Source: Nostoc sp. PCC 7120 = FACHB-418 (GTDB lineage: Bacteria; Cyanobacteriota; Cyanobacteriia; Cyanobacteriales; Nostocaceae). From it: 32,000 bases of DNA. Of the stretch, positions 12,329 to 23,891 are shown piece by piece. Positions within the stretch are counted from its first letter, which is position 1. Every line of letters starts with the position of its first letter. Under the pieces are notes generated by a model that did no database searches, was not told where the DNA came from, and worked only from the letters and a program-made list of their open reading frames with translations. The stretch is taken from assembly GCF_000009705.1 (NCBI RefSeq), contig NC_003272.1, positions 1,920,001 through 1,952,000 of the forward strand, read 5' to 3'. The translations under genes were made by a program, and so were the position numbers.

Positions 12329-12369
12329 TTATATTTACGTATGTTGACTCAAAGAGCGATTTTTAAATT

Positions 12370-15300
12370 TTATTGCCACCACCGTGAAACATCTTGGATA
12401 GCAGAAGCTGTATCTCTCAATGCTTGTTCGCCACCTAAAGTATCTATAATTGGAGTTAGTATATTTATATCACTAAGTAAGCCTGGGCGAGTGTAAACAG
12501 ATAAGATGTGAAGAGTTTTTCCCCAGAGACAAAAAAGTTGAGTTTTTTGTATTTGTAAAAGTTTATCCACCAAACTACTCAGGACTTGGGCGCGATGCTT
12601 CTCATCCTGAATCCCCCTGGCAGCAGCCACAGCCTCTGGTAACAATTCTGGCAATTTATCAGCCAAATTACTTAGAACATCAGCACGATACTCTTCATCC
12701 TGAATCTTCCTAGCAGCAGCCACAGCCTCTGGTAACAATTCTGGCAATTTATCAGCCAAATTACTTAGAACATCAGCACGATACTCTTCATCCTGAATCT
12801 TCCTAGCAGCAGCCACAGCCTCTGGTAACAATTCTGGCAATTTATCAGCCAAATTACTTAGAACATCAGCACGATACTCTTCATCCTGAATCTCCCTAGC
12901 AGCAGCCAGAGCCTCTGGTAACAATTCTGGTGGCAATTTATCAGCCAAACTACTTAAGGCATTGGCGCGATAGTACTCATCCTGAATTTCCCTGGCTGCT
13001 GCCAGAGCCTTTGGTAACAATTCTGGTGGCAATTTATCAGCCAAATCACTTAGATTATAGGCGCGATTATGCCCGTCATCCTGAATCTCCCTGGTAGCAG
13101 CGAGAGCCTCTGGTAATAATTCTGGCAATTTATCAGCCAAACTTCTTAGGGCTAAGGAACGAGGATACTCATCCTGAATCCCCCTGGCAGCAGCTACCGC
13201 CTCTGGTAATAATTCTGGGAATTTATCAGCTAGACTTATTAGAACATAGGCGCGATAGTACTCATCCTCAGTCTCCCTGGCAGCAGCCACAGCCTCTGGT
13301 AATAATTCAGGTGGCAATTTATCAGCCAAACTACTTAAGCTATCGGCGCGACAATGCTCACTCAGAATCTCCCTGGCAGCAGCCAGAGCCTCTGGTAGCA
13401 CTTCTGGGAATTTATTAGCCAAATTACTTAGAGCATCGGAATGAAACGCATCATACTCGATCTCCCTAGCAGCAGCTACAGCCTCTGGTAACAATTCTGG
13501 CAACTGAACAGCCAAACTACCCAGAATAGAGGCGCGAAACTCTCCATATTCAATCTCCCTAGTAGCAGCCACAACTTCTGGTAGCAATTCTGGTGGCAAT
13601 TTATCAGCCAAACTTCTTAAGGCTTGGGCGCGATACTCCTCATCCTGAATCTCTATGGCAGCAGCTAGAGCCTCTGGTAACAATTCTGGAAATTTATCAG
13701 CCAAACTTCTTAAGGCTTGGGCGCGACTTGACTCAAACTGAATCTCCCTGGCAGCAGCTAGAGCCTCTGGTAACAATTCCGGCAATTTCGCAGCCAAACT
13801 ACTGAGAATATAGGCGCGATACTTCTCATCCTTAATCTCTCTGACAGCCACAGCCTCTGATAACAATTCTGGTGGTAATTTATTTGCTAAACTACTTAGA
13901 GCATCGTTGCGATACTTTTCATCCTCAATCTCCCTGGCAGCAGCGAGAGCCTCTGGTAATAATTCTGGTAATTTATCAGCCAAACTACTTAAGGCTTCGG
14001 CGCGATACTTTTCATCCTCAATTTCCCTGGCAACAGCGAGAGCCTCTGATAACAATTCTGGTGGCAATTTATCAGCCAAACTACTTAGAATATCAGCGCG
14101 ATTATAACCATTCTGAATCTCCCTGGTAGCAGCGAGAGCCTCTGGTAATAATTCTGGCAATTTATCAGCCAAACTACTTAGAATATAGGCGCGACTTGAT
14201 TCAAACTCAATCTCCCTGGCAGCAGCCAACGCCTCTGGTAACAGTTCTGGCAATTTATCACTCAAACTTCCCAGTACTTCGGCGCGATTCGCCTCATCCT
14301 GAATTTCCCTGGCAGCAGCCACAGCCTCTGGTAACAATTCTGGTGGTAATTTATTAGCCAAACTAATTAGAGCATCGCGGCGATTGTAGCTATTCTCAAT
14401 CTCCCTGGCAGCAGCCAACGCCTCTGGTAATAATTCTGGCAATTTATCAACCAAAATACTTAGAACAAAGACACGAGAATCCTCATCCTGAATCTCCCTG
14501 GCAGCAGCCACAGCCTCTGGTAACAATTCTGGTGGCAATTTAACAGCCAAACTACTTAGAATTCGAGCACGCCTAGACTCATCCTCAGTCTTTCTGGCAG
14601 TAGCTAGAGCCTCTGGTAACAATTCTGGCAATTTATCAGCCAAACTACCTAGTACCTGGGCGCGAAACTCCTCATCCTGAATCTCCCTGGCAGCAACCAG
14701 AGCCTCTGGTAACAATTCTGGCGGTAATTTGTCAGCCAAACTACCTAGTACCTGGGCGCGATAGCTCTCATACTCAATCTGCCTGGCAACAGCCAGAGCC
14801 TCTGGTAATAATTCTGGTGGCAGTTTAACAGCCAAACTACTTAGTACCTGGACGCGAAACTTTTCATCCTCAGCCTCCCTGGTATCAATCTTCCTAGTAG
14901 CAGCCAGAGCTTTCGACAGTGCTAATTCTTTTAACTTTGATGGCAAATGATTGGCTAGCTGTGTAAGCAAGTTTGCTTTCTGTGATGGATTCGAGCTTTG
15001 TATTGCGTAACTGAGTCCTTGCTCAGGAGTCCACATATTTTTTTCAACTAACGCAACCAACAGCCCTACTGGTAAATCCACTGTTAAACTATTAAGGGAT
15101 GCAATAATTAAAGCATAGCGACACTGCAACCCAATAACTTGAGCCAAGGTTGTTTCAGTCCAGGAGTTTTCTGCCAATTCCCAAGCACGAAAAACATCAG
15201 TTACAAAATTGGCAGTTTGTGATAGGCGCGCGCAAGCTTCGTACCAACCATTACCTCCTGTTTCTGAATCTTCTCGTAATAATTCGTGAATTTCTTCTAC

Positions 15301-16515
15301 CTTTTGAGCCTTGGACAAATGCCAAACTAAATGCTGATGGATATACCCGTCATTGGGTAAGGTATGCCAAAGATTTTCAGAGGTTTTATTTCGGTATGTC
15401 TCCAAAAAAGTAGCGTGAGCAGAGGCTAAAGTTATACCCAACCCCGATAGATTATCTTCATCCTCTGGGTTTGGTGGAGCAGTCAACAAATTACGTGCTA
15501 AGTCATGAAATAAGTCATGTAAACGGTACGTTGGTGTCCCATCTTTTAAAGGAACTCCAGGCGATAAAACTGCTTTATTTTCTAAGTATTCCAATGTCTT
15601 AGCAGCATCATATATATCCATTTTCCATAGAGTCGCTGCCATCATCTTAGTGATGGTAACATTTTTCGGTAATACCCCCAACCAAGAAAAATGCTCCTGC
15701 TTTTCTTTAGGCATTCGCTTGAGACTCAAATTTAATGATGCTGTTAAGCGCAAGCGTTTTAAAATGGTTTCATCAGTAATTTCTTCTGCTTTTGGTCGAG
15801 TAAGATTTTTTAATCGCGCTACCTCTTGCTGAAAATCCTCTAATAATTGAGTCCAAGTTGTACAACTGGCGATTTCAGCAGCTACCAATGACAACGCCAG
15901 AGGGAAATAACCAACGGATGAAGCTAAATCTTGCGCTGGCTGATATTCTATAGCAGTAATCGAGCGTCCTAATTTTTTAGTCAGCAGTTCCATTGCTTGG
16001 GATGGTTCCATCACATCCAAACAACATGGGGGGTTAGCTCCGAGAGCTTCGGCGATTTCTGCATCGCGGGTTGTTACCAAAACTTGACAGCTAGCTCCAC
16101 CAACATTAAATGCTTGTGCATCCTCTATATTCCAAACGTCGTCTATTATTAGCAGCACAGCTTTTTCATACAACAATGTACGCAGTTGATTGGAAGTTGC
16201 TTCCACACTGATGGGTTTAAAGTTGTAGTCCCCCAATGCTTGTACCCAAGCACTAAGCAGCGATAAAAGATTAGGCTGTTGACCTAAAGTTACCCAGAGA
16301 ATCCCGTCACAAAAATGAGCTTGCACCTCTTGGTCATATGCCAAAGCCATTGCCAGGGTAGATTTACCAACCGAAGCCAAGCCATCAATAGCTGTCACGA
16401 CCAAAGCACCTACATCTGATGAATTTTTCAGCAGACGAGTTTTTAACTCTCGGCTGTATTCGAGACGTTCTACATAATAATTTGGTAGAGATGGTGCGAG
16501 TAAGGTATCAATCAT
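12370..16515 (-). CDS. STAND NTPase of the APAF-1/NB-ARC type with a C-terminal array of ~24 HEAT/TPR-like 31-32-aa helical repeats (bacterial NLR-like protein)
   Basis: 1381-aa ORF. The NB-ARC motifs appear in order: Walker A GLASVGKST, Walker B LLIIDDVW, VLVTTR, GLPL-like GYFPLAL, MHD-like RLHDLFHDLA, then an APAF-1-like helical domain (YIHQHLVWHLSKA...). From about aa 564 to 1317 come repeats of consensus KLP(P)ELLPEALAAAREIQDEEYRAxVLSSLAD, then a 64-aa non-repeat cap ending QDVSRWWQ. Only ~25 aa precede the NTPase, so there is no effector domain. Confidence 0.9.
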   Translation of the reverse strand: MIDTLLAPSLPNYYVERLEYSRELKTRLLKNSSDVGALVVTAIDGLASVGKSTLAMALAYDQEVQAHFCDGILWVTLGQQPNLLSLLSAWVQALGDYNFKPISVEATSNQLRTLLYEKAVLLIIDDVWNIEDAQAFNVGGASCQVLVTTRDAEIAEALGANPPCCLDVMEPSQAMELLTKKLGRSITAIEYQPAQDLASSVGYFPLALSLVAAEIASCTTWTQLLEDFQQEVARLKNLTRPKAEEITDETILKRLRLTASLNLSLKRMPKEKQEHFSWLGVLPKNVTITKMMAATLWKMDIYDAAKTLEYLENKAVLSPGVPLKDGTPTYRLHDLFHDLARNLLTAPPNPEDEDNLSGLGITLASAHATFLETYRNKTSENLWHTLPNDGYIHQHLVWHLSKAQKVEEIHELLREDSETGGNGWYEACARLSQTANFVTDVFRAWELAENSWTETTLAQVIGLQCRYALIIASLNSLTVDLPVGLLVALVEKNMWTPEQGLSYAIQSSNPSQKANLLTQLANHLPSKLKELALSKALAATRKIDTREAEDEKFRVQVLSSLAVKLPPELLPEALAVARQIEYESYRAQVLGSLADKLPPELLPEALVAAREIQDEEFRAQVLGSLADKLPELLPEALATARKTEDESRRARILSSLAVKLPPELLPEAVAAAREIQDEDSRVFVLSILVDKLPELLPEALAAAREIENSYNRRDALISLANKLPPELLPEAVAAAREIQDEANRAEVLGSLSDKLPELLPEALAAAREIEFESSRAYILSSLADKLPELLPEALAATREIQNGYNRADILSSLADKLPPELLSEALAVAREIEDEKYRAEALSSLADKLPELLPEALAAAREIEDEKYRNDALSSLANKLPPELLSEAVAVREIKDEKYRAYILSSLAAKLPELLPEALAAAREIQFESSRAQALRSLADKFPELLPEALAAAIEIQDEEYRAQALRSLADKLPPELLPEVVAATREIEYGEFRASILGSLAVQLPELLPEAVAAAREIEYDAFHSDALSNLANKFPEVLPEALAAAREILSEHCRADSLSSLADKLPPELLPEAVAAARETEDEYYRAYVLISLADKFPELLPEAVAAARGIQDEYPRSLALRSLADKLPELLPEALAATREIQDDGHNRAYNLSDLADKLPPELLPKALAAAREIQDEYYRANALSSLADKLPPELLPEALAAAREIQDEEYRADVLSNLADKLPELLPEAVAAARKIQDEEYRADVLSNLADKLPELLPEAVAAARKIQDEEYRADVLSNLADKLPELLPEAVAAARGIQDEKHRAQVLSSLVDKLLQIQKTQLFCLWGKTLHILSVYTRPGLLSDINILTPIIDTLGGEQALRDTASAIQDVSRWWQ
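12566..14827 (-). repeat. Intragenic tandem repeat array, period 93/96 nt, ~24 units
   Basis: The motif ctctggtaacaattctgg(tgg)caatttatcagccaaa... recurs throughout. Units 12638-12730 and 12731-12823 are identical. Unit 12824-12916 differs from them at 2 positions. More 5-prime units (higher coordinates) are progressively more diverged. Confidence 0.9.
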
Positions 16516-16533
16516 CTTGTATATTACTGGCTT

Positions 16534-17097
16534 TTACAGCTTTTGATTGACTAGATATCTCCGAAAACGCTCAAAGCCTTTATGTTCTTCTAAAACTAAT
16601 TTTACTTTAAGCAGATCATAAGTTATGCTCTCATCATCTTCTATACCATCATCGCTTGGAGCATCTATGTATTCCCCGTCCCAGCGACGCTTAAAAGCGC
16701 TGTCTAAATAATAAATAGATTCATCTGATGTATTAATAGTGGCAATTATAAATAAGTTAGGGGGATTGTTAATTTTGCGATTTTCTAAATTTTTAAGTAG
16801 TCTCAATCAATTACTGTTTGAATCTCTTTCCAATTGAGATTTTAAGTTGCCAGTAAAAATACCAAAATTACTGCCGTTAATTTTTATTAAACCCTCAAGG
16901 TAAATATTAGCTTTATGTCCCATTACATTAAATAAACCAACCAATTACATTTCCGAGACATCAACCTCATAACTCGACCAATCGTCTTCTTACCTGTCCA
17001 GCAATTGAAAAACTGAACCAAATATAGCAGCAGCATTTCCTCGGTTTAATTCATCAATAACCAGGAGACAATTATCACTTAGAAGTAGTAGCCATAG
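16534..17097 (-). pseudogene. Decayed McrB-like AAA+ (AAA_5 / restriction GTPase subunit) gene lacking its Walker A half
   Basis: A single minus-strand frame reads ...CLLVIDELNRGNAAAIFGSVFQLLDR*EDDWSSYEVDVSEM*LVGLFNVMGHKANIYLEGLIKINGSNFGIFTGNLKSQLERDSNSN*LRLLKNLENRKINNPPNLFIIATINTSDESIYYLDSAFKRRWDGEYI.... That gives a McrB-type Walker B (IDE-x-NR), an NhhIIaTxNtxDxS block and an arginine-finger block (AFKRRW). The frame has three in-frame stops (16990-16992, 16945-16947, 16807-16809). The N-terminal P-loop region is missing and is replaced by the opposite-strand ORF at 17098. Track ORF 16534..16806 is the last open piece and ends 18 nt before the NB-ARC start. Confidence 0.7.
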
Positions 17098-17418
17098 ATG
17101 GCAAAACTCACTACAATTGAGTCATTAATTGGAGCAGTTGTTATTGAAGAATTTGGTGCTTTTACTTGGATTGGAAGACAATGGTACTTCACAAACTTCA
17201 CGGGTAAACCTTTTACTCGTAATGATTTTATTGAATGGTATTCCTGCCCAAGAGGAATGATATTACCTAATTGTCAGTACACTGATTTTCAAAATTGGGG
17301 TGGTAGTGCTGAATTAATTAACAAGAAAATCAAGTGGTATTTTATTGGACGAGATGAAAGTGGTAGACGTGTTAAGGGTGAAGCTGAAATTGAAGAATTT
17401 GGTGAGCTTATTGAGTAA
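17098..17418 (+). CDS. Hypothetical protein (orphan, 106 aa)
   Basis: The ORF has a protein-like composition (MAKLTTIESLIGAVVIEEFGAFTWIGRQWYF...). I recognise no family motif, and its reverse complement shows no McrB-like sequence. It sits at the breakpoint of the McrB-like remnant. Confidence 0.4.
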   Translation: MAKLTTIESLIGAVVIEEFGAFTWIGRQWYFTNFTGKPFTRNDFIEWYSCPRGMILPNCQYTDFQNWGGSAELINKKIKWYFIGRDESGRRVKGEAEIEEFGELIE

Positions 17419-18253: not shown

Positions 18254-19762
18254 TTAATTCTTATGCTGGACTGCATTAATTGTTTGTAATAATTGGTAAG
18301 CGGTGTATGGCTTCGATAAAAATGCTTGGATACCCATATTATAAGCTGTGTTGACTTTATCATGAGCCGCCAAGCCACTGACAGCAATGATTTTTACATG
18401 AGGATTAATTTTTTGCAATGTCCGAATAGTTGTTAAGCCATCCATAGAGGGCATTACCATATCTGTCAACACCAAAGATATTTCGTCTCGGTGTTCTGCA
18501 TATAAGGCGATCGCTTCAATTCCATCACTAGCTGTAATTGCTTTATAATTATGAGACTCTAGAGATGTTTTCGTAATATCTCTAATAGCAGCTTCATCAT
18601 CGACAACTAAGATTAACTCTCCATTTCCTGGAGGTAATTCCAACTCTGCTTCTTCTAAAAGCTCTTTGGTATCCTGAGCAGGTAAATACACTTTAAACTG
18701 GCTGCCTTCGCCCTCTTCCGTATATACATTAATAAAACCCCCGTGACTTTTAATAATGCCGAGTACGGTTGAAAGTCCTAATCCCGTGCCTTTACCCAAT
18801 TCTTTCGTGGTAAAGAATGGCTCAAATATCCGATCTAATATGTCTGAAGGAATACCAATTCCCGTATCAGTAACTGTAACTACTACATAGGGGCCGACTT
18901 TGGCATCTATATTCATTTTGGCATAATTTTCATCTATCGAGAAGTTTTCCGCCGTGATTTTCAACGTACCGCCCTTGGGCATCGCATCACGGGCATTAAC
19001 ACACAAATTCATCAGTACTTGATGTAACTGGGTAGCATCACCAGAAACAGTCCAAAGATTCTGAGAAATGTGCGCCACCAAATCAATTGATTTGGGAAAT
19101 GTTTCTTTAATAATTTGCTGAATTTCTCCCACTAGGTGCTTCAATTGCAATAAGGTGCGTTCACCTTCAAGACCGCGAGTAAATGATAATACTTGTTTAA
19201 CTAAGTTAGCCCCGCGTTTAGCGTTAGTAATCAATATTGGCAATAGTCGCCGAGAACGTTCATCTTTGATTTGTGATTCTAAAAGTTGTGCTGTCATCAA
19301 AATAGGAGCCAGAACATTATTGAGATCATGGGCAATACCACTTGCAAGAGTGCCAATACTCTCTAATCGTTGAGCGCGAAGAAATTGAGCTTCTAATTGC
19401 TTTTTTTGGGTGATTTCTGTGTTGACGATGAGTATACATTGGGATTTATTCCCAAACTCATGTACTAATGTCCAACGGCTTTCAACAATAATTTCTTTAC
19501 CAGATTTTGTGGTTTGATGTAATTCTCCCTTCCATGAACCTTTTTGCTGTAGAGTCTCCAGTGCTTTTTGCAATAAGGCTAAGTTTTTGTCTTGCCAGAG
19601 ATTTTGAGTTTTGTTGTCAATTGCTTCTGCTTTTTGCCAACCGTAAAGCCTTGCTGCTGCTTCGTTCCAAAATAAAACTTGCCCATCTAAATCTTGTACA
19701 AAAATGGCATCATTGGCAATATCCAGCAGCGCTGCTTGTTCACGGATTTTTTTTCTGTTTGT
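18254..19762 (-). CDS. Hybrid sensor histidine kinase, PAS-HisKA-HATPase_c-REC portion (downstream part of a frameshifted REC-PAS-HK-REC gene)
   Basis: H-box SGIAHDLNNVLAPI, N-box LMNLCVNARDAMP, G-boxes DTGIGIP and GKGTGLGLS, C-terminal receiver LILVVDDEAAIRD...VLTDMVMPSMDG. The frame is open upstream of the track start (TTG 19573) up to 19762. That extension encodes a PAS N-terminus: IREQAALLDIANDAIFVQDLDGQVLFWNEAAARLYGW. Confidence 0.85.
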   Translation of the reverse strand, partial: TNRKKIREQAALLDIANDAIFVQDLDGQVLFWNEAAARLYGWQKAEAIDNKTQNLWQDKNLALLQKALETLQQKGSWKGELHQTTKSGKEIIVESRWTLVHEFGNKSQCILIVNTEITQKKQLEAQFLRAQRLESIGTLASGIAHDLNNVLAPILMTAQLLESQIKDERSRRLLPILITNAKRGANLVKQVLSFTRGLEGERTLLQLKHLVGEIQQIIKETFPKSIDLVAHISQNLWTVSGDATQLHQVLMNLCVNARDAMPKGGTLKITAENFSIDENYAKMNIDAKVGPYVVVTVTDTGIGIPSDILDRIFEPFFTTKELGKGTGLGLSTVLGIIKSHGGFINVYTEEGEGSQFKVYLPAQDTKELLEEAELELPPGNGELILVVDDEAAIRDITKTSLESHNYKAITASDGIEAIALYAEHRDEISLVLTDMVMPSMDGLTTIRTLQKINPHVKIIAVSGLAAHDKVNTAYNMGIQAFLSKPYTAYQLLQTINAVQHKN

Positions 19763-20145
19763 TTACGCTCAATGGCATAGAGAATAGAACGTTCTAGGAG
19801 AGGTGCATTCAGTTGGTTCTTTTCTAGATAATCTACCGCTCCGGCTTTCATGGCTTCTATATCTATTTCTCCGTCTCCTTGACCTGTGAGCAAAATTATC
19901 GGAGAGGTGCAGCCATCGGCAATTGCTTCGCGTAACAGTTCTAGTCCACTGCGGGAGCCTAAACGATAGTCTACTAAATATATATCATGCTGATTTTTGG
20001 CGATCGCTACTTTTGCCGCTTCATAATTATCTACCCATTCTAACTTGCAGTTAGCTACCCGAAATTCACTGAACCAATTACAAGTTAAGATGTAATCACT
20101 TTCGCCATCATCAACCAACAGCACTCTGACTAAACTTTGGCTCAT
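19687..20145 (-). CDS. N-terminal receiver (REC) domain of the same hybrid kinase, separated by a frameshift at an A8 run
   Basis: VRVLLVDDGESDY...DIYLVDYRLGSRSGLELL...ILLTGQGDGEIDIEAMKAGAVDYLEK is a complete CheY-like receiver. After the A8 tract (19747-19754) the ORF ends in 22 codons of out-of-frame sequence. Confidence 0.8.
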   Translation of the reverse strand: MSQSLVRVLLVDDGESDYILTCNWFSEFRVANCKLEWVDNYEAAKVAIAKNQHDIYLVDYRLGSRSGLELLREAIADGCTSPIILLTGQGDGEIDIEAMKAGAVDYLEKNQLNAPLLERSILYAIERKQTEKKSVNKQRCWILPMMPFLYKI

Positions 20146-22313: not shown

Positions 22314-23891
22314 CTAAATATTGAATGGACTGTAATAACAGTATTGAGATGGCAGATTAAGACCTTGTAATTTCAAATTTTGTAGACGATATAAATAGGC
22401 AGCACCTTGCATAATATGTGTGGCTACGTCAACAACTGTGCGATTTTCAGGCAATTCTAAATAGGAACCTTTCACCCATTCATTAAAGGAACCCATTGCG
22501 GGGCCGCACCAGATTTGATAATCCATTTTGCGCTGCTCATCTCCACTAGTTGACCAACGAGAAGATAATCCTAAATACCAGCGAAAAATCAGAGCCATTT
22601 TCCGTTTAGGGTTGTTATTAGCTCGTGCAATTTGTTCAGGATCTCGTTGGGAAAAATAAGCAACGGTCTCATCCCAAACTTGATCTAAATTTTTGCGGAA
22701 AATTTGTGTTTCTAGAGTTTGACGTATCTCTGGGGGAATCTCTTCAATTCCTCCATAAGTTTTATAAAGGTCATACAATTTTTGCGCGCGCATGGGGAAC
22801 AAACTACCCCGTTTAAGTAGTTGTACCTTCACCCCCATTTCAAACATATCAGCGCAGGGTGCCATCACCATATCAGCCATGCTTGCTTGGGCTAATAATT
22901 GTTTGGTATGGTCAGAGGTTCCAGCTTCTATGCAACTATGGTTGATCGAACCTGTGACAATATAACTAGCCCCCATCATAAAGGCAGCTAAAGCCGCTTC
23001 CGGTGTGCCAATTCCGCCAGCCGCACCTACTCTTACGGGATGGTCATAATGGTATTGGTGTTGAATTTCATCTCGTAAGGCGATAATGCTGGGTAGCAGA
23101 CATACCAAAGAACGGTTATCAGTGTGACCCCCTGAATCAGCCTCAACGGTAATATCATCCGCCAAGGGGACTTTTTCGGCTAAAGCAGCTTGTAACGGTG
23201 TAATATATCCCCGTTCTACTAAGGATTTGAGGAATTTTAGCGGTGCAGGTTGCAGAAATTTTTGAGCTACTTCAGAGCGGGAAATTTTGGCAATGACTTT
23301 ATTGTGGGTTTGAATTTCCCCTTGAGAATTTAGGTGTAGCCCGGCTGCACGATAGCGGACAATATGAGGGGTTAAATCCATGTAAGCTGAGGCTTCTACT
23401 GTCCTCACCCCATGTTTGAGGTAAAGTTCCACAGCCCCTTGCTCTAGGGCTTCTTCTGAGGGGCTATGAATCAAATTGAAGGCATAAGGGCCAGTAGGCA
23501 GGGCTTGTTGAATTTGGAAAATAGCTTTTTCTACCCGTTGCGGTACTAATCCTGCTGACCCGAAACTGGCTAAAAATCCGGCTTTTCCCAAGGCAATGAC
23601 TAGGGTTTCCGAGGCAATACCCCCCGCCATCGCGCCAGCCGCATAGGCGTAGTTAACTCCATGAAAATCAAGAAAACTGCGATCGCCCAATTTTTGGGGT
23701 AAGATGGCATTCACCATCATTTGTGCTTGTATGCCTTCAATAGGTTGATGGGATACTCCTACTTGATTATTTTTCAGAAATACATAACAAGGTTGATGTA
23801 AGTTCAGCAATTTTTGTTGAATACTTTCATGATCGAAAGCAATAGAATCTGGAGGATTCAGGGTGGCGATGGATGTACCTTGAGTGAGCAT
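22314..23891 (-). CDS. pfaD: PfaD-family enoyl reductase (FMN-dependent, 2-nitropropane-dioxygenase-like) of a PUFA-synthase-like system
   Basis: Blocks match PfaD/trans-ER proteins: FLDFHGVNYAYAAGAMAGGIASETLVIALGKAGFLASFGSAGL, VEASAYMDLTP, ITVEADSGGHTDN, VGAAGGIGTPEAALAAFMMGASYIVTGSINHSC. The likely start is the ATG at 23891 (MLTQGTS...). The 38 extra N-terminal codons in the track ORF (to 24005) are read out of the MITE-like element. Confidence 0.9.
   Translation of the reverse strand: MLTQGTSIATLNPPDSIAFDHESIQQKLLNLHQPCYVFLKNNQVGVSHQPIEGIQAQMMVNAILPQKLGDRSFLDFHGVNYAYAAGAMAGGIASETLVIALGKAGFLASFGSAGLVPQRVEKAIFQIQQALPTGPYAFNLIHSPSEEALEQGAVELYLKHGVRTVEASAYMDLTPHIVRYRAAGLHLNSQGEIQTHNKVIAKISRSEVAQKFLQPAPLKFLKSLVERGYITPLQAALAEKVPLADDITVEADSGGHTDNRSLVCLLPSIIALRDEIQHQYHYDHPVRVGAAGGIGTPEAALAAFMMGASYIVTGSINHSCIEAGTSDHTKQLLAQASMADMVMAPCADMFEMGVKVQLLKRGSLFPMRAQKLYDLYKTYGGIEEIPPEIRQTLETQIFRKNLDQVWDETVAYFSQRDPEQIARANNNPKRKMALIFRWYLGLSSRWSTSGDEQRKMDYQIWCGPAMGSFNEWVKGSYLELPENRTVVDVATHIMQGAAYLYRLQNLKLQGLNLPSQYCYYSPFNI

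What the first reader, a model, noticed from the sequence alone, without database searches (positions are those of the whole stretch)
12370..16515. Effector-less NB-ARC (APAF-1-type) STAND NTPase with ~24 homogenised repeats carrying a hypervariable patch: a bacterial NLR-like sensor
Seen in the sequence:
- A complete NB-ARC motif series (GLASVGKST, LLIIDDVW, VLVTTR, GYFPLAL, RLHDLFHDLA) starts only ~25 aa from the N-terminus, so there is no fused effector domain.
- More than half of the protein is ~24 tandem 31/32-aa units.
- The scaffold positions are almost invariant (KLP(P)ELLPEA-hAAAREI ... L-x-x-LAD).
- Variation is concentrated in about 10 contiguous positions after REI. Examples: QDEEYRADVLSN, EYESYRAQVLGS, ENSYNRRDALIS, QNGYNRADILSS, EFESSRAYILSS, LSEHCRADSLSS, TEDEYYRAYVLIS, QDDGHNRAYNLSD.

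Established knowledge: high inter-repeat identity combined with a focused variable surface is the pattern described for fungal NLRs with WD40/ANK/TPR arrays, and it is expected for a diversifying ligand sensor. STAND NTPases with repeat sensors include known antiphage Avs/bNACHT systems.

Inference: this is a candidate innate-immunity-type sensor. Its output partner is unknown, or was lost with the adjacent McrB-like gene. The repeat type is not a textbook TPR or HEAT consensus.
Basis: partly seen in the sequence, partly recalled or inferred. Interest (0 to 1): 0.8.

Follow-up and report, generated by a model that had tools for sequence, protein, structure and literature searches.

The report
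Headless cyanobacterial NLR-like repeat sensor
This gene encodes a bacterial relative of the animal cell-death protein Apaf-1 that carries a long, fast-changing array of helical repeats but no built-in output domain; it is a well-preserved example of a protein class already described in filamentous cyanobacteria and fungi.

Summary
Window 12370..16515 (-) is an intact 1381-aa ORF. It has a canonical NB-ARC/Apaf-1-type module starting about 8-25 aa from the N-terminus, then 24 tandem 31/32-aa units, then a conserved C-terminal cap. Variation is concentrated on one face of the second helix of each unit.

The protein belongs to a large cyanobacterial family. Most relatives carry an N-terminal EAD4, CHAT, TIR, caspase or trypsin module; this copy lacks one.

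Two close alleles share the same headless start: one on a Calothrix sp. 336/3 plasmid (26 units) and one on a MAG contig (23 units). Homology among the three stops within about 40 bp of the gene. The adjacent McrB-like pseudogene is therefore not a lost partner.

Between alleles the nucleotide-binding module is under purifying selection (dN/dS 0.32-0.44). The repeat array is mosaic and diverges much faster. dN/dS is about 1 at variable positions and 0.31 at scaffold positions.

By predicted fold the repeats are a HEAT-like alpha-solenoid.

Highly internally conserved NLR repeats are already described in cyanobacteria and fungi. This is a new member of a known kind. Immune function and output are inferred, not shown.

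The parts
12370..16515 (-). Complete CDS of the headless NB-ARC/HEAT-like repeat protein (1381 aa plus stop)
   Evidence: ORF; the identical protein is called on 6 contigs, including AP018216.1 and CP183817.1.
15496..16494 (-). NBD-HD1-WHD core of the NB-ARC module (aa 8-340). It includes the degenerate family linker APSLPNYYVERLEYS at its start.
   Evidence: Pfam NB-ARC aa 23-237. phmmer against PDB: Apaf-1 residues 120-443 align to aa 8-338, E = 8e-17; AfsR E = 4e-20. Linker motif comparison.
16357..16383 (-). Walker A / P-loop, GLASVGKST (aa 45-53)
   Evidence: Read from the sequence. G45, G50 and K51 are invariant in 54 family members.
16132..16155 (-). Walker B, LLIIDDVW (aa 121-128)
   Evidence: D125, D126 and W128 are invariant in the family.
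16066..16083 (-). Sensor-1 / RNBS-B motif, VLVTTR (aa 145-150)
   Evidence: T148 and R150 are invariant.
15892..15912 (-). GLPL-type motif, GYFPLAL (aa 202-208). F204 replaces a family-invariant L.
15496..15525 (-). MHD-equivalent motif of the winged-helix domain, RLHDLFHDLA (aa 331-340)
   Evidence: H333, D334 and H337 are invariant.
14950..15495 (-). HD2-like helical domain linking the NOD to the repeats (aa 341-522)
   Evidence: Weak Pfam APAF1_C hit, aa 365-413. The model of aa 1-570 has pLDDT 87.2. It aligns over about 490 columns with ADP-bound Apaf-1 (1z6t), TM 0.57.
14827..14949 (-). Degenerate first repeat unit / N-cap of the solenoid (aa 523-563)
   Evidence: sequence. Helix pairs in the model.
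12565..14826 (-). 24 tandem 31/32-aa HEAT-like units (aa 564-1317). Hypervariable columns are 22, 23, 26 and 27 of each unit. Units 22 and 23 are identical at DNA level.
   Evidence: Model pLDDT 84.9 with two 12-residue helices per unit. Top fold matches are Cand1, mTOR, SF3B1 and karyopherins. Unit identities.
12373..12564 (-). Family-conserved C-terminal cap (aa 1318-1381, ...LFCLWGKTLHILSVYTRP...DVSRWWQ)
   Evidence: Consensus of alignment A1. 98% identical to the plasmid allele.
12330..16551 (-). Largest stretch shared with the two other alleles. This is the gene plus at most about 40 bp on each side, so it behaves like a cassette.
   Evidence: blastn against the Calothrix plasmid covers 12361..16544. 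blastn against the MAG contig L089 covers 12330..16551. Border alignments.
16534..17072 (-). Neighbour, not part of the system: a 5'-truncated McrB/AAA_5-like pseudogene. It lies in one frame with internal stops at 16990-16992, 16945-16947 and 16807-16809.
   Evidence: It is absent next to the other two alleles.
16745..16772 (-). Promoter-like site, TTAACA-16-TATAAT (11 of 12 matches), about 230 bp upstream of the ATG. This is a consensus match only.
   Evidence: The number of sites in the region does not exceed the shuffled expectation.

Best explanation
The gene encodes a functional, horizontally mobile, 'headless' member of a large family found in (mostly filamentous) cyanobacteria: Apaf-1-type (AP-ATPase/NB-ARC) STAND NTPases with a C-terminal HEAT-like alpha-solenoid sensor.

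Shown:
- The architecture is NBD-HD1-WHD-HD2, then 1 degenerate and 24 regular two-helix units, then a cap.
- The array turns over by unit duplication, deletion and gene conversion. The nucleotide-binding module meanwhile stays under purifying selection.
- Variation is focused on one face of the second helix of each unit.
- The gene occurs as a tight cassette in three unrelated contexts, including a plasmid.

Inferred from what is established for Apaf-1, plant and fungal NLRs and bacterial Avs:
- The variable stripe along the solenoid binds a non-self or danger ligand, probably a protein.
- Binding releases the ADP-locked closed state.
- ATP-dependent oligomerisation follows.

The protein has no N-terminal EAD4, TIR, CHAT or caspase module. 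Its output must therefore be delivered in trans, most plausibly by co-assembly with effector-bearing paralogues or an unlinked partner. Alternatively it acts as a sensor-only modulator. The biological role is most likely in conflict (phage, mobile elements or non-self recognition), as proposed for the family.
For: NB-ARC identity:
- Pfam E = 5.6e-23.
- Sequence hits to PDB: Apaf-1 8e-17, AfsR 4e-20 and plant NRC4 1e-8.
- The model of aa 1-570 (pLDDT 87.2) matches ADP-bound Apaf-1 best, TM 0.57.

Family:
- 764 homologs were found, and all of the best 120 are NB-ARC proteins.
- By my count of the precomputed Pfam lists, about 47 carry EAD4 (PF19959, named), 10 CHAT, 4 TIR_2, 3 caspase, 3 trypsin and 3 EAD1.
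- All share the linker FQAPPLPxYYVDRPEYS. The query starts exactly there.

Repeat variability:
- Entropy is focused on unit columns 22, 23, 26 and 27.
- The same positions are hypervariable in 11 other arrays. Within-protein unit identity is 0.79 against 0.65 between proteins.

Comparison with the Calothrix 336/3 plasmid allele (1444 aa, 26 units, same MIDTL(F/L)APSLPNYY start):
- NOD: 98.6% nucleotide identity, dS 0.029, dN/dS 0.32. The binomial test against neutrality gives p = 0.007.
- Colinear units 1-19: dS 0.16, which is 5.9 times the NOD value (p = 1.5e-9).
- Variable positions: dN 0.22, about 26 times the NOD value, dN/dS 1.23.
- Scaffold positions: dN/dS 0.31.
- Amino-acid differences are 4.8-fold enriched in variable columns (p = 2e-12).

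Comparison with the MAG allele L089 (1344 aa, 23 units, same start):
- NOD dS 0.16, dN/dS 0.41, p = 2e-6.

Mosaicism and recent duplication:
- Several window units match the NOD-distant MAG allele better than the NOD-close plasmid allele. For example unit 8 is 0.98 against 0.89, and unit 18 is 0.94 against 0.83.
- Units identical at DNA level exist in both arrays: Q22 = Q23, C20 = C21 = C22 and C24 = C25.

Fold:
- The repeat model has pLDDT 84.9 and two 12-residue helices per unit.
- Top PDB matches are HEAT solenoids.
- The engineered alphaRep binders are built on HEAT-like repeats. They use an analogous set of variable positions (18, 19, 22, 23, 26, 30) on the concave face to bind arbitrary proteins (PMC3754942). 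The 31-residue unit length is from my own memory of the alphaRep design; it was not retrieved.

Accessory behaviour:
- The gene is absent downstream of the conserved SulP-Usp-SulP cluster in other Nostocales. DNA synteny ends at about 11978.

Literature:
- Highly internally conserved NLR repeats and their reshuffling are described in bioRxiv 2020.01.06.895854 and PMC13449251.
- Effector-associated domains and STAND conflict systems are described in PMC7159879.
Against: - There is no experimental evidence of any function.
- No PADLOC defence model matches.
- No effector or EAD lies in cis or anywhere in the 32-kb window, so the output step is pure inference.
- dN/dS at variable positions is not significantly above 1 (p = 0.57). 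Relaxed constraint combined with conversion could produce the pattern.
- The query deviates from the family at 15 of 187 highly conserved NOD columns, ranking 94th of 111. This includes the linker prolines and the L to F change in GLPL.
- I could not test whether the host genome has effector-bearing paralogues.
- I could not read model coordinates, so the placement of the variable residues on the concave face rests on helical periodicity only.
Confidence: 0.6

Rival explanations
1. The gene is a decaying relic: an N-terminally truncated NLR gene that lost its effector module and no longer functions. Its repeat variation would then be neutral slippage and gene conversion.
For: - There is no N-terminal module, whereas most relatives have one.
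- The linker motif is degenerate: Q6L, P9S, P18L.
- It sits next to a pseudogene in a strain-specific segment.
- dN/dS is about 1 at variable positions.
- No defence-model hit.
Against: - The 4.1-kb ORF is intact in three lineages that differ by up to 12% in NOD amino acids.
- All repeat indels are in frame.
- The NOD is under significant purifying selection after the headless state arose: dN/dS 0.32-0.44, p = 0.007 and 2e-6.
- Scaffold positions of the repeats have dN/dS 0.31 (p = 4e-7).
- The catalytic motifs are intact.
- Headless starts at the same linker recur in other lineages (Okeania, Trichodesmium, Moorena, Oscillatoriales).
Confidence: 0.12
2. The protein is a non-immune STAND switch or scaffold. 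It would be an ATP-dependent signalling or regulatory protein, in the manner of AfsR, MalT or other bacterial STAND regulators. Its HEAT-like array would bind an endogenous partner, for example in development or stress signalling.
For: - The best sequence matches among curated and solved proteins include the regulator AfsR (NCBIfam E = 1e-26, well below its cut-off; PDB E = 4e-20).
- No PADLOC match.
- No toxic effector.
- HEAT solenoids in the PDB are generic scaffolds.
Against: - No DNA-binding or other output domain is present.
- Relatives of the same family carry TIR, CHAT, caspase, trypsin and EAD modules typical of cell-death and conflict systems (PMC7159879).
- The gene is accessory, plasmid-borne in one lineage and non-syntenic.
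- An endogenous, conserved partner would not be expected to tolerate 35% amino-acid change in the variable columns (66 of 190 cells) between alleles whose NOD differs by 2%.
Confidence: 0.13
3. The protein is a decoy or dominant-negative regulator. The headless protein would co-assemble with effector-bearing paralogues and dampen or tune them, rather than sensing on its own behalf.
For: - The NOD is intact and selectively maintained without an output domain.
- Several family copies can occur in one genome: two on one Calothrix NIES-2100 chromosome (P0041 and P0067).
- In the MAG contig L089 the allele lies directly downstream of another NLR gene.
Against: - A pure dampener would not need a 24-unit, rapidly diversifying sensor array.
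- The pairing with another NLR is seen in only one of three contexts.
- The presence of family paralogues in the host was not tested.
Confidence: 0.15

Closest known systems
Cyanobacterial EAD4/TIR/CHAT/caspase-NB-ARC-repeat proteins (AP-ATPase STAND components of the conflict systems of Kaur, Burroughs, Iyer and Aravind 2020, PMC7159879)
   Same: It belongs to the same protein family. The NOD is 45-71% identical. The linker motif, the 31/32-aa repeat type and the C-terminal cap are the same.
   Different: It lacks any N-terminal effector or effector-associated domain. The linker is partly degenerate. No cognate EAD partner is possible.
Fungal NLRs with highly internally conserved (HIC) WD40, ANK, TPR or HEAT repeats (HET-E/HET-D/NWD family; Paoletti 2007 and Dyrka 2014 as cited in bioRxiv 2020.01.06.895854; PMC13449251)
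   Same: - A NOD followed by near-identical tandem units.
- A few hypervariable positions on one surface.
- Repeat-number polymorphism between alleles.
- Unit reshuffling and conversion.
   Different: - It is bacterial.
- The unit is a 31/32-aa HEAT-like repeat with no curated model.
- It has no N-terminal death or effector domain.
- dN/dS above 1 is not demonstrated.
- HEAT repeats were explicitly left out of the cross-kingdom HIC survey (PMC13449251).
Apaf-1 / CED-4 / Dark (AP-ATPases)
   Same: NBD-HD1-WHD-HD2 core. This is the best structural match (1z6t TM 0.57, 21% identity). Sequence E = 8e-17.
   Different: It has no CARD. The sensor is a HEAT-like solenoid instead of WD40 propellers.
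Bacterial antiviral STANDs (Avs families; bNACHT)
   Same: The general logic is the same: a STAND NTPase with a C-terminal repeat sensor. For Avs this logic is shown to recognise phage proteins (PMC13581612).
   Different: There is no PADLOC model hit. It has no N-terminal effector. The NOD is the NB-ARC clade rather than NACHT or Avs. It has not been tested against phage.
alphaRep artificial binders built on natural HEAT-like repeats (PMC3754942)
   Same: A two-helix HEAT-like unit with paired variable positions on one helix (alphaRep positions 18, 19, 22, 23, 26, 30). These form the concave binding surface in alphaRep. The 31-residue unit length and the alignment of the R-containing helix between the two are from my own reading of the consensus, not from a tool test.
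   Different: One is a natural protein fused to a STAND NTPase, the other is engineered. Sequence similarity to HEAT_2 is only marginal (E = 0.013).
Sensor/helper NLR pairs and truncated NLRs (plant NRC network, NAIP-NLRC4)
   Same: These offer a conceptual analogy for a sensor without its own executioner domain. NRC helpers are among the structural matches of the NOD.
   Different: No helper has been identified here. The analogy is untested.

Membership tests
AP-ATPase / NB-ARC STAND NTPases | Pfam NB-ARC (PF00931) above its gathering score | tested here: met
   81.9 bits against a cut-off of 23.5, E = 5.6e-23, aa 23-237.
AP-ATPase / NB-ARC STAND NTPases | Walker A GxxxxGK[ST], Walker B hhhhDD, sensor-1 Arg (TTR), GxP/GLPL motif and MHD-type His-Asp in the winged helix | tested here: met
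   GLASVGKST, LLIIDDVW, VLVTTR, GYFPLAL and RLHDLFHDLA are all present. The key residues are invariant in 54 family members.
AP-ATPase / NB-ARC STAND NTPases | NBD-HD1-WHD(-HD2) fold as in Apaf-1 | tested here: met
   The model has pLDDT 87.2 and pTM 0.78. The best PDB match is ADP-bound Apaf-1 (1z6t), TM 0.57 over about 490 columns. Plant NRCs and CED-4 follow.
NLRs with highly internally conserved (HIC) repeats | Superstructure-forming repeats C-terminal to a NOD, with unit similarity of about 0.7 or more | tested here: met
   24 units. Mean pairwise amino-acid identity is 0.71 and nucleotide matches are 78%. This is borderline against the Psim >= 0.7 criterion quoted in PMC13449251. Psim itself was not computed.
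NLRs with highly internally conserved (HIC) repeats | Repeat-number polymorphism between alleles | tested here: met
   24, 26 and 23 units in three alleles whose NODs are 88-98% identical. The syntenic pair P0010/P0012 also differs in repeat number.
NLRs with highly internally conserved (HIC) repeats | Diversifying (positive) selection at a few surface positions | tested here: inconclusive
   Variation is strongly focused. Amino-acid differences are 4.8-fold enriched in variable columns, p = 2e-12. dN/dS is 1.07-1.23 there against 0.31 for the scaffold, but it is not significantly above 1 (p = 0.57). The estimate is confounded by gene conversion.
EAD-linked conflict systems (Kaur et al. 2020) | An effector-associated domain on the core protein, matched by a cognate EAD on an effector | tested here: not met
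   Relatives carry EAD4 or EAD1. The query starts at the linker. No EAD-like sequence is found anywhere in the window by tblastn with 90+ N-termini.
Avs / bNACHT antiphage STANDs | Match to a defence-system model (PADLOC) | tested here: not met
   0 PADLOC families at E <= 0.1.
Avs / bNACHT antiphage STANDs | A fused N-terminal effector domain whose removal abolishes activity | tested here: not met
   Only about 7 residues precede the region that aligns with Apaf-1 and family NODs.
Avs / bNACHT antiphage STANDs | Protection against phage, or activation by a phage protein | not testable with these tools
   This needs an experiment.
HEAT repeats | Two antiparallel helices per unit, stacked into an alpha-solenoid | tested here: met
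   The secondary-structure (DSSP) assignment of the model shows pairs of 12-residue helices per 31/32-aa unit. The top 50 PDB matches are dominated by HEAT solenoids: Cand1, mTOR, SF3B1 and importins.
HEAT repeats | Sequence match to curated HEAT models (Pfam HEAT, HEAT_2, HEAT_PBS) | tested here: not met
   HEAT_2 reaches only 16.2 bits against a cut-off of 27.7 (E = 0.013). Other hits are repeat-summation artefacts.
TPR | A 34-aa (or 42-aa) unit matching TPR models | tested here: not met
   The unit is 31/32 aa. There is no TPR Pfam hit. The structural matches listed are HEAT-type solenoids.
McrBC restriction system (as a partner) | Intact McrB GTPase and McrC genes linked to the gene across alleles | tested here: not met
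   The McrB-like ORF has 3 internal stops and lacks its 5' half. It is absent from the plasmid and MAG contexts.

The most novel reading that the evidence does not exclude
The gene is a mobile, sensor-only NLR cassette. It would be a 4.2-kb unit that moves between plasmids and chromosomes of filamentous cyanobacteria. It would plug a new, rapidly diversifying HEAT-like recognition surface into resident effector-bearing paralogues by hetero-oligomerisation of the shared NOD. That would make it a bacterial counterpart of plant sensor/helper NLR networks or of NAIP-NLRC4.
Probability: 0.15. Interest if true: 0.75.

Novelty: new member of a known kind. Interest (0 to 1): 0.4.

Why it matters
NLR-like STAND proteins with near-identical, reshuffling repeats are thought to give fungi, and possibly multicellular bacteria, a fast-evolving recognition repertoire. 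The evidence in bacteria is mostly architectural.

This locus offers a clean natural comparison. Three alleles share the nucleotide-binding module at 88-98% identity, while the repeat array has changed unit number and recognition residues in a mosaic way. One allele is plasmid-borne.

The locus also raises a concrete question: how does a sensor with no output domain, kept under purifying selection, signal? Anabaena/Nostoc PCC 7120 is genetically tractable, so the question can be tested directly.

Tried and rejected
1. A lost N-terminal domain just upstream. tblastn of 90+ homolog N-termini against the whole window found only the linker at 16429..16560. An in-frame TAA lies 7 codons (21 nt) upstream of the ATG (its last base 18 nt before it) and is shared with the plasmid allele. 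Rejected.

2. McrB-like gene as partner. It is a pseudogene and is not shared by the other alleles. Rejected.

3. orf106 (17098..17418) as partner. It has no family hit in Pfam, PADLOC, NCBIfam or PHROGs. It is absent from the other contexts. Not supported.

4. Housekeeping or syntenic gene. The SulP2 anchor scan shows the gene is absent at this position in other Nostocales. Rejected.

5. Diversity-generating retroelement. I saw no reverse transcriptase in the window, though I did not run a family search on the other window ORFs. Differences include many synonymous changes and whole-unit mosaics. Rejected.

6. Phage origin. A viral-contig scan found nothing. PHROG hits are repeat artefacts.

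7. Exact look-ups that failed: the MoaE neighbour, P0043 and P0024, and the cluster look-up of the query.

8. Locus-tag guesses for PCC 7120 in the literature gave nothing useful.

9. Pfam hits to Nterm_IS4, RhoGAP, DUF496, DUF1804 and others are summed weak matches over repeats, not domains.

10. Sequence search of the repeats against PDB gave no meaningful hit.

11. I could not map variable residues on the 3D model because coordinates are not exposed.

Full report
**1. What is in the sequence**

Window 12370..16515 on the minus strand is one uninterrupted ATG-started ORF of 1381 codons. Pfam places an NB-ARC domain at aa 23-237 (E = 5.6e-23, 81.9 bits, cut-off 23.5) and a weak APAF1_C match at aa 365-413.

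Tandem Repeats Finder reports a 93-bp period, 24.6 copies and 78% matches at 12562..14882. At protein level there are 24 units of 31 or 32 aa (aa 564-1317, 55% of the protein). One degenerate unit precedes them and a 64-aa tail follows.

In the 33-column unit alignment, columns 22, 23, 26 and 27 carry 1.9-2.7 bits with 5-9 residue types. Columns 18-20, 25, 29 and 30 carry 1.1-1.6 bits. Most other columns carry at most 0.8 bits, and 5 (P4, E5, L7, L28, L31) are invariant. The variable window (columns 18-30) is interrupted by near-invariant R24 and invariant L28, so it is one face of a helix rather than a contiguous stretch.

A Nei-Gojobori count over all unit pairs gives dN/dS of 1.18 for the four hypervariable codons, 0.88 for the ten variable codons and 0.21 for the scaffold.

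**2. Source and neighbourhood**

The identical protein is called on six contigs. These include Trichormus variabilis NIES-23 (AP018216.1; I recall the organism from the accession) and CP183817.1. The window differs from those records by a single homopolymer indel elsewhere, plus one mismatch in the case of CP183817.1. The array is therefore assembled identically in independent assemblies.

On one side lies a SulP-Usp-SulP cluster that is conserved across Nostocales. DNA synteny with six relatives stops at about 11978, the end of the second SulP gene. None of five relatives with 10 kb of downstream sequence has this gene or the MoaE gene there.

On the other side lies a McrB/AAA_5-like pseudogene (16534..17072). 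It sits in one frame with three internal stops and its 5' half is missing. Next comes a 106-aa ORF with no family match. The gene thus sits in a strain-specific segment.

**3. The family**

A search of 5.8 billion proteins gave 764 relatives. The best 120 are all NB-ARC proteins of filamentous or colonial cyanobacteria.

The precomputed domain lists show an N-terminal module in most of them. By my count, about 47 have EAD4 (PF19959, named), 10 CHAT, 4 TIR_2, 3 caspase, 3 trypsin-like and 3 EAD1. The Walker A motif lies about 190-250 or about 475 residues from the start.

All members share a linker, FQAPPLPxYYVDRPEYSxxLK, directly before the NB-ARC domain. The query begins exactly there, in a degenerate form (MIDTLLAPSLPNYYVERLEYS). 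A minority of relatives from Okeania, Trichodesmium, Moorena, Oscillatoriales and Nostoc are headless in the same way. Their contexts differ:
- One (P0012) has its EAD4 as a separate 178-aa ORF just upstream. It is syntenic with a fused EAD4 version (P0010) that has a different repeat number.
- Another (P0117) has an alpha/beta-hydrolase gene 30 bp upstream.
- Another (P0082) has nothing adjacent.

Against 110 relatives the query deviates at 15 of 187 highly conserved NOD columns, ranking 94th of 111. It keeps every catalytic residue.

The same unit positions are hypervariable in 11 other arrays. Units are more alike within a protein (0.79) than between proteins (0.65), which is the signature of concerted evolution or recent expansion.

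The repeat type itself is common. It is found in 3489 clusters at E <= 1e-3 among 1.84 billion representatives. It is not exclusive to NB-ARC, since one example is fused to a KAP NTPase.

**4. Close alleles: the most informative result**

A tblastn search of PLSDB found a 97.9%-identical NOD on the 23.8-kb plasmid 'unnamed2' of Calothrix sp. 336/3. That gene (L085 19186..23520, 1444 aa) starts MIDTLFAPSLPNYY and has 26 units.

A metagenome scan found a third allele on a 175-kb MAG contig (L089 6001..10035, 1344 aa). It has the same start and 23 units.

DNA homology among the three stops 29-36 bp upstream of the ATG and 12-40 bp after the stop. Upstream are, respectively:
- the McrB-like pseudogene (window);
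- a hairpin, and, if the record is circular, an IS4 transposase (plasmid);
- an unrelated NB-ARC-TPR gene (MAG contig).

The in-frame stop upstream of the ATG lies inside the shared leader. The headless state is therefore ancestral to all three alleles, and the McrB remnant is irrelevant to it.

| Comparison | Region | dS | dN | dN/dS | Test |
|---|---|---|---|---|---|
| Window vs plasmid allele | NOD (98.6% nt identity) | 0.029 | 0.009 | 0.32 | binomial p = 0.007 |
| Window vs MAG allele | NOD | 0.161 | 0.066 | 0.41 | p = 2e-6 |
| Window vs plasmid allele | Units 1-19, all codons | 0.16 | 0.10 | 0.64 | dS 5.9 times NOD, p = 1.5e-9 |
| Window vs plasmid allele | Units 1-19, variable positions | 0.18 | 0.22 | 1.23 | not above 1, p = 0.57 |
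| Window vs plasmid allele | Units 1-19, scaffold | 0.16 | 0.05 | 0.31 | p = 4e-7 |

The headless NOD has therefore been kept under purifying selection. In the 19 colinear units, dN at variable positions is about 26 times the NOD value. Amino-acid differences are 4.8-fold enriched in variable columns (p = 2e-12).

Divergence is patchy. Units 2 and 11-15 are 96-97% identical, while units 1, 3-8, 16 and 18 are 76-89% identical. Some window units match the NOD-distant MAG allele better than the NOD-close plasmid allele (unit 8: 0.98 against 0.89; unit 18: 0.94 against 0.83). Each array also has freshly duplicated identical units (Q22 = Q23; C20 = C21 = C22; C24 = C25; C3 is about 95% identical to C4; C18 is about 94% identical to C22).

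The array therefore evolves by unit duplication, deletion and gene conversion. Change is tolerated or favoured at the variable face. Formal positive selection is not shown.

**5. Structure**

A model of aa 1-570, built with 53 relatives, has pLDDT 87.2 and pTM 0.78. Its best PDB match is ADP-bound Apaf-1 (1z6t, TM 0.57 over about 490 columns, 21% identity). Plant NRC helpers, ZAR1, CED-4 and Dark follow. Sequence search of the PDB agrees: AfsR 4e-20, Apaf-1 8e-17, NRC4 1e-8.

A model of aa 500-1381 has pLDDT 84.9. It is all-helical, with two 12-residue helices and two 4-residue turns per unit. Its matches are dominated by HEAT solenoids (Cand1, mTOR, SF3B1, karyopherins), at 10-15% identity for all but one of the 50 listed hits. 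These carry no specific functional implication.

By sequence the unit fits no curated repeat model. HEAT_2 reaches 16.2 bits against a cut-off of 27.7, and the other hits are repeat-summation artefacts.

Mapping the unit onto the secondary-structure (DSSP) string places the variable columns 22, 23, 26, 27, 29 and 30 on the first two-thirds of the second helix. Columns 18-19 fall in the preceding turn. Conserved R24, L28 and L31 point the other way.

This arrangement resembles the engineered alphaRep binders. These are HEAT-like repeat proteins whose variable positions 18, 19, 22, 23, 26 and 30 form the concave binding face (PMC3754942). The 31-residue unit length and the register comparison are my own reading. 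I could not read model coordinates to verify exposure.

**6. How it most likely works**

Shown:
- An intact Apaf-1-type NOD.
- A long HEAT-like solenoid with a focused, fast-changing stripe.
- Selective maintenance of the NOD.
- An accessory, mobile distribution.

Inferred from Apaf-1, plant and fungal NLRs and bacterial Avs (PMC7159879; PMC13581612):
- The stripe binds a non-self or danger ligand.
- Binding opens the ADP-locked state.
- ATP-dependent oligomerisation follows.

In full-length relatives the N-terminal EAD4, TIR, CHAT or caspase modules would then be clustered. Here there is none, so the output must be in trans. That means hetero-oligomers with effector-bearing paralogues or an unlinked partner, or else a modulatory or decoy role. 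I put 0.6 on 'functional sensor-type NLR of the conflict family with trans output'.

The rivals are a decaying relic (0.12), a non-immune STAND switch (0.13) and a decoy or dampener (0.15). The decoy rival overlaps with the trans-output part of the main explanation, so the four figures are not a strict partition.

**7. Comparison with what is known**

NB-ARC/AP-ATPase proteins with repeat sensors in multicellular bacteria have long been known (Koonin and Aravind 2002 and Leipe 2004, as cited in PMC7159879). EADs and their logic were described in 2020.

High internal conservation of NLR repeats, with unit reshuffling and hypervariable positions, is established in fungi. It has been noted for WD40 and TPR NLRs of Actinobacteria and Cyanobacteria (bioRxiv 2020.01.06.895854; PMC13449251). 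HEAT-type arrays were explicitly left out of the cross-kingdom survey.

PADLOC has no model for this protein.

The finding is therefore a new, nicely documented member of a known kind. Three points go a little beyond what I found in the literature:
- the HEAT-like high-identity unit;
- the conserved headless clade;
- the three-context cassette.

None of these is categorically new.

**8. Verdict**

Novelty: new member of a known kind. Interest: 0.4.

The most novel reading not excluded is a mobile sensor-only NLR cassette that signals through resident helper paralogues (probability about 0.15).

Noticed in passing
window 16534..17072 (-): A McrB/AAA_5-like pseudogene. About 180 codons lie in one frame, from the Walker B region (LLVIDELNRGN) to the end. 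Internal stops are at 16990-16992, 16945-16947 and 16807-16809. The 5' half is missing. Its last codons and stop lie inside the leader that the NB-ARC gene shares with its other alleles.
   Followed up: yes
window 17098..17418 (+): A 106-aa ORF, also called as a gene in the public assemblies. It has no hit in Pfam, NCBIfam, PADLOC or PHROGs. It occupies the place where the 5' half of the McrB-like gene should be.
   Followed up: partly
window 19746..19755: A T8 homopolymer here is T9 in AP018216.1 and CP183817.1. In the window it splits a 630-aa response-regulator-PAS-histidine-kinase-response-regulator gene into ORFs of 439 and 152 aa (18254..19573 and 19687..20145). This is either a strain difference or a sequencing error.
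   Followed up: partly
window 12330..16551; L085 19177..23549; L089 5964..10076: The three alleles share only the gene plus at most about 40 bp of flank, in three unrelated contexts. I saw no recombinase, inverted repeat or clear target-site duplication at the borders. How the gene moves is unexplained.
   Followed up: partly
L003 6400..9090 (-); L089 2955..5354 (+): A different STAND type, NB-ARC plus near-identical 42-aa TPR units, lies directly after SulP2 in a Trichormus MAG. That is where the window has the HEAT-like gene. A 52%-identical relative lies immediately upstream of the headless allele in the MAG contig. NLR-like genes seem to cluster in, or replace each other at, variable spots.
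   Followed up: partly
L086 4060..4971 (+): A headless homolog from an Oscillatoriales genome (P0117) has a 303-aa alpha/beta-hydrolase gene ending 30 bp before its start codon. This may be an effector encoded as a separate gene.
   Followed up: no
L083 5346..5882 (+) and L084 6001..10506 (+): At syntenic loci of two Nostoc genomes the EAD4 domain is either fused to the NB-ARC protein (1501 aa) or encoded as a separate 178-aa ORF upstream of a 1262-aa headless protein. The two proteins have different repeat numbers.
   Followed up: partly
protein P0254 (2205 aa): The same 31-aa repeat type starts about 156 residues from the N-terminus of a protein whose C-terminus is a KAP-family P-loop NTPase. 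The repeat module is therefore not exclusive to NB-ARC proteins.
   Followed up: no
window 12565..14826 (protein aa 564-1317): Summing weak matches over the repeats produces misleading domain hits: Nterm_IS4, RhoGAP, DUF496, DUF1804, Phage-MuB_C and a sactipeptide RiPP model. It also yields odd source names for homologs ('ribosomal protein L17', 'biotin synthase-like enzyme', 'SAM-dependent methyltransferase').
   Followed up: yes
L085 about 23560..23610: A long perfect-looking palindrome (GCAATTCATCCCACGCTCC...GGCGTGGAATGAATTGC) lies just upstream of the plasmid allele, right where homology with the window ends.
   Followed up: no
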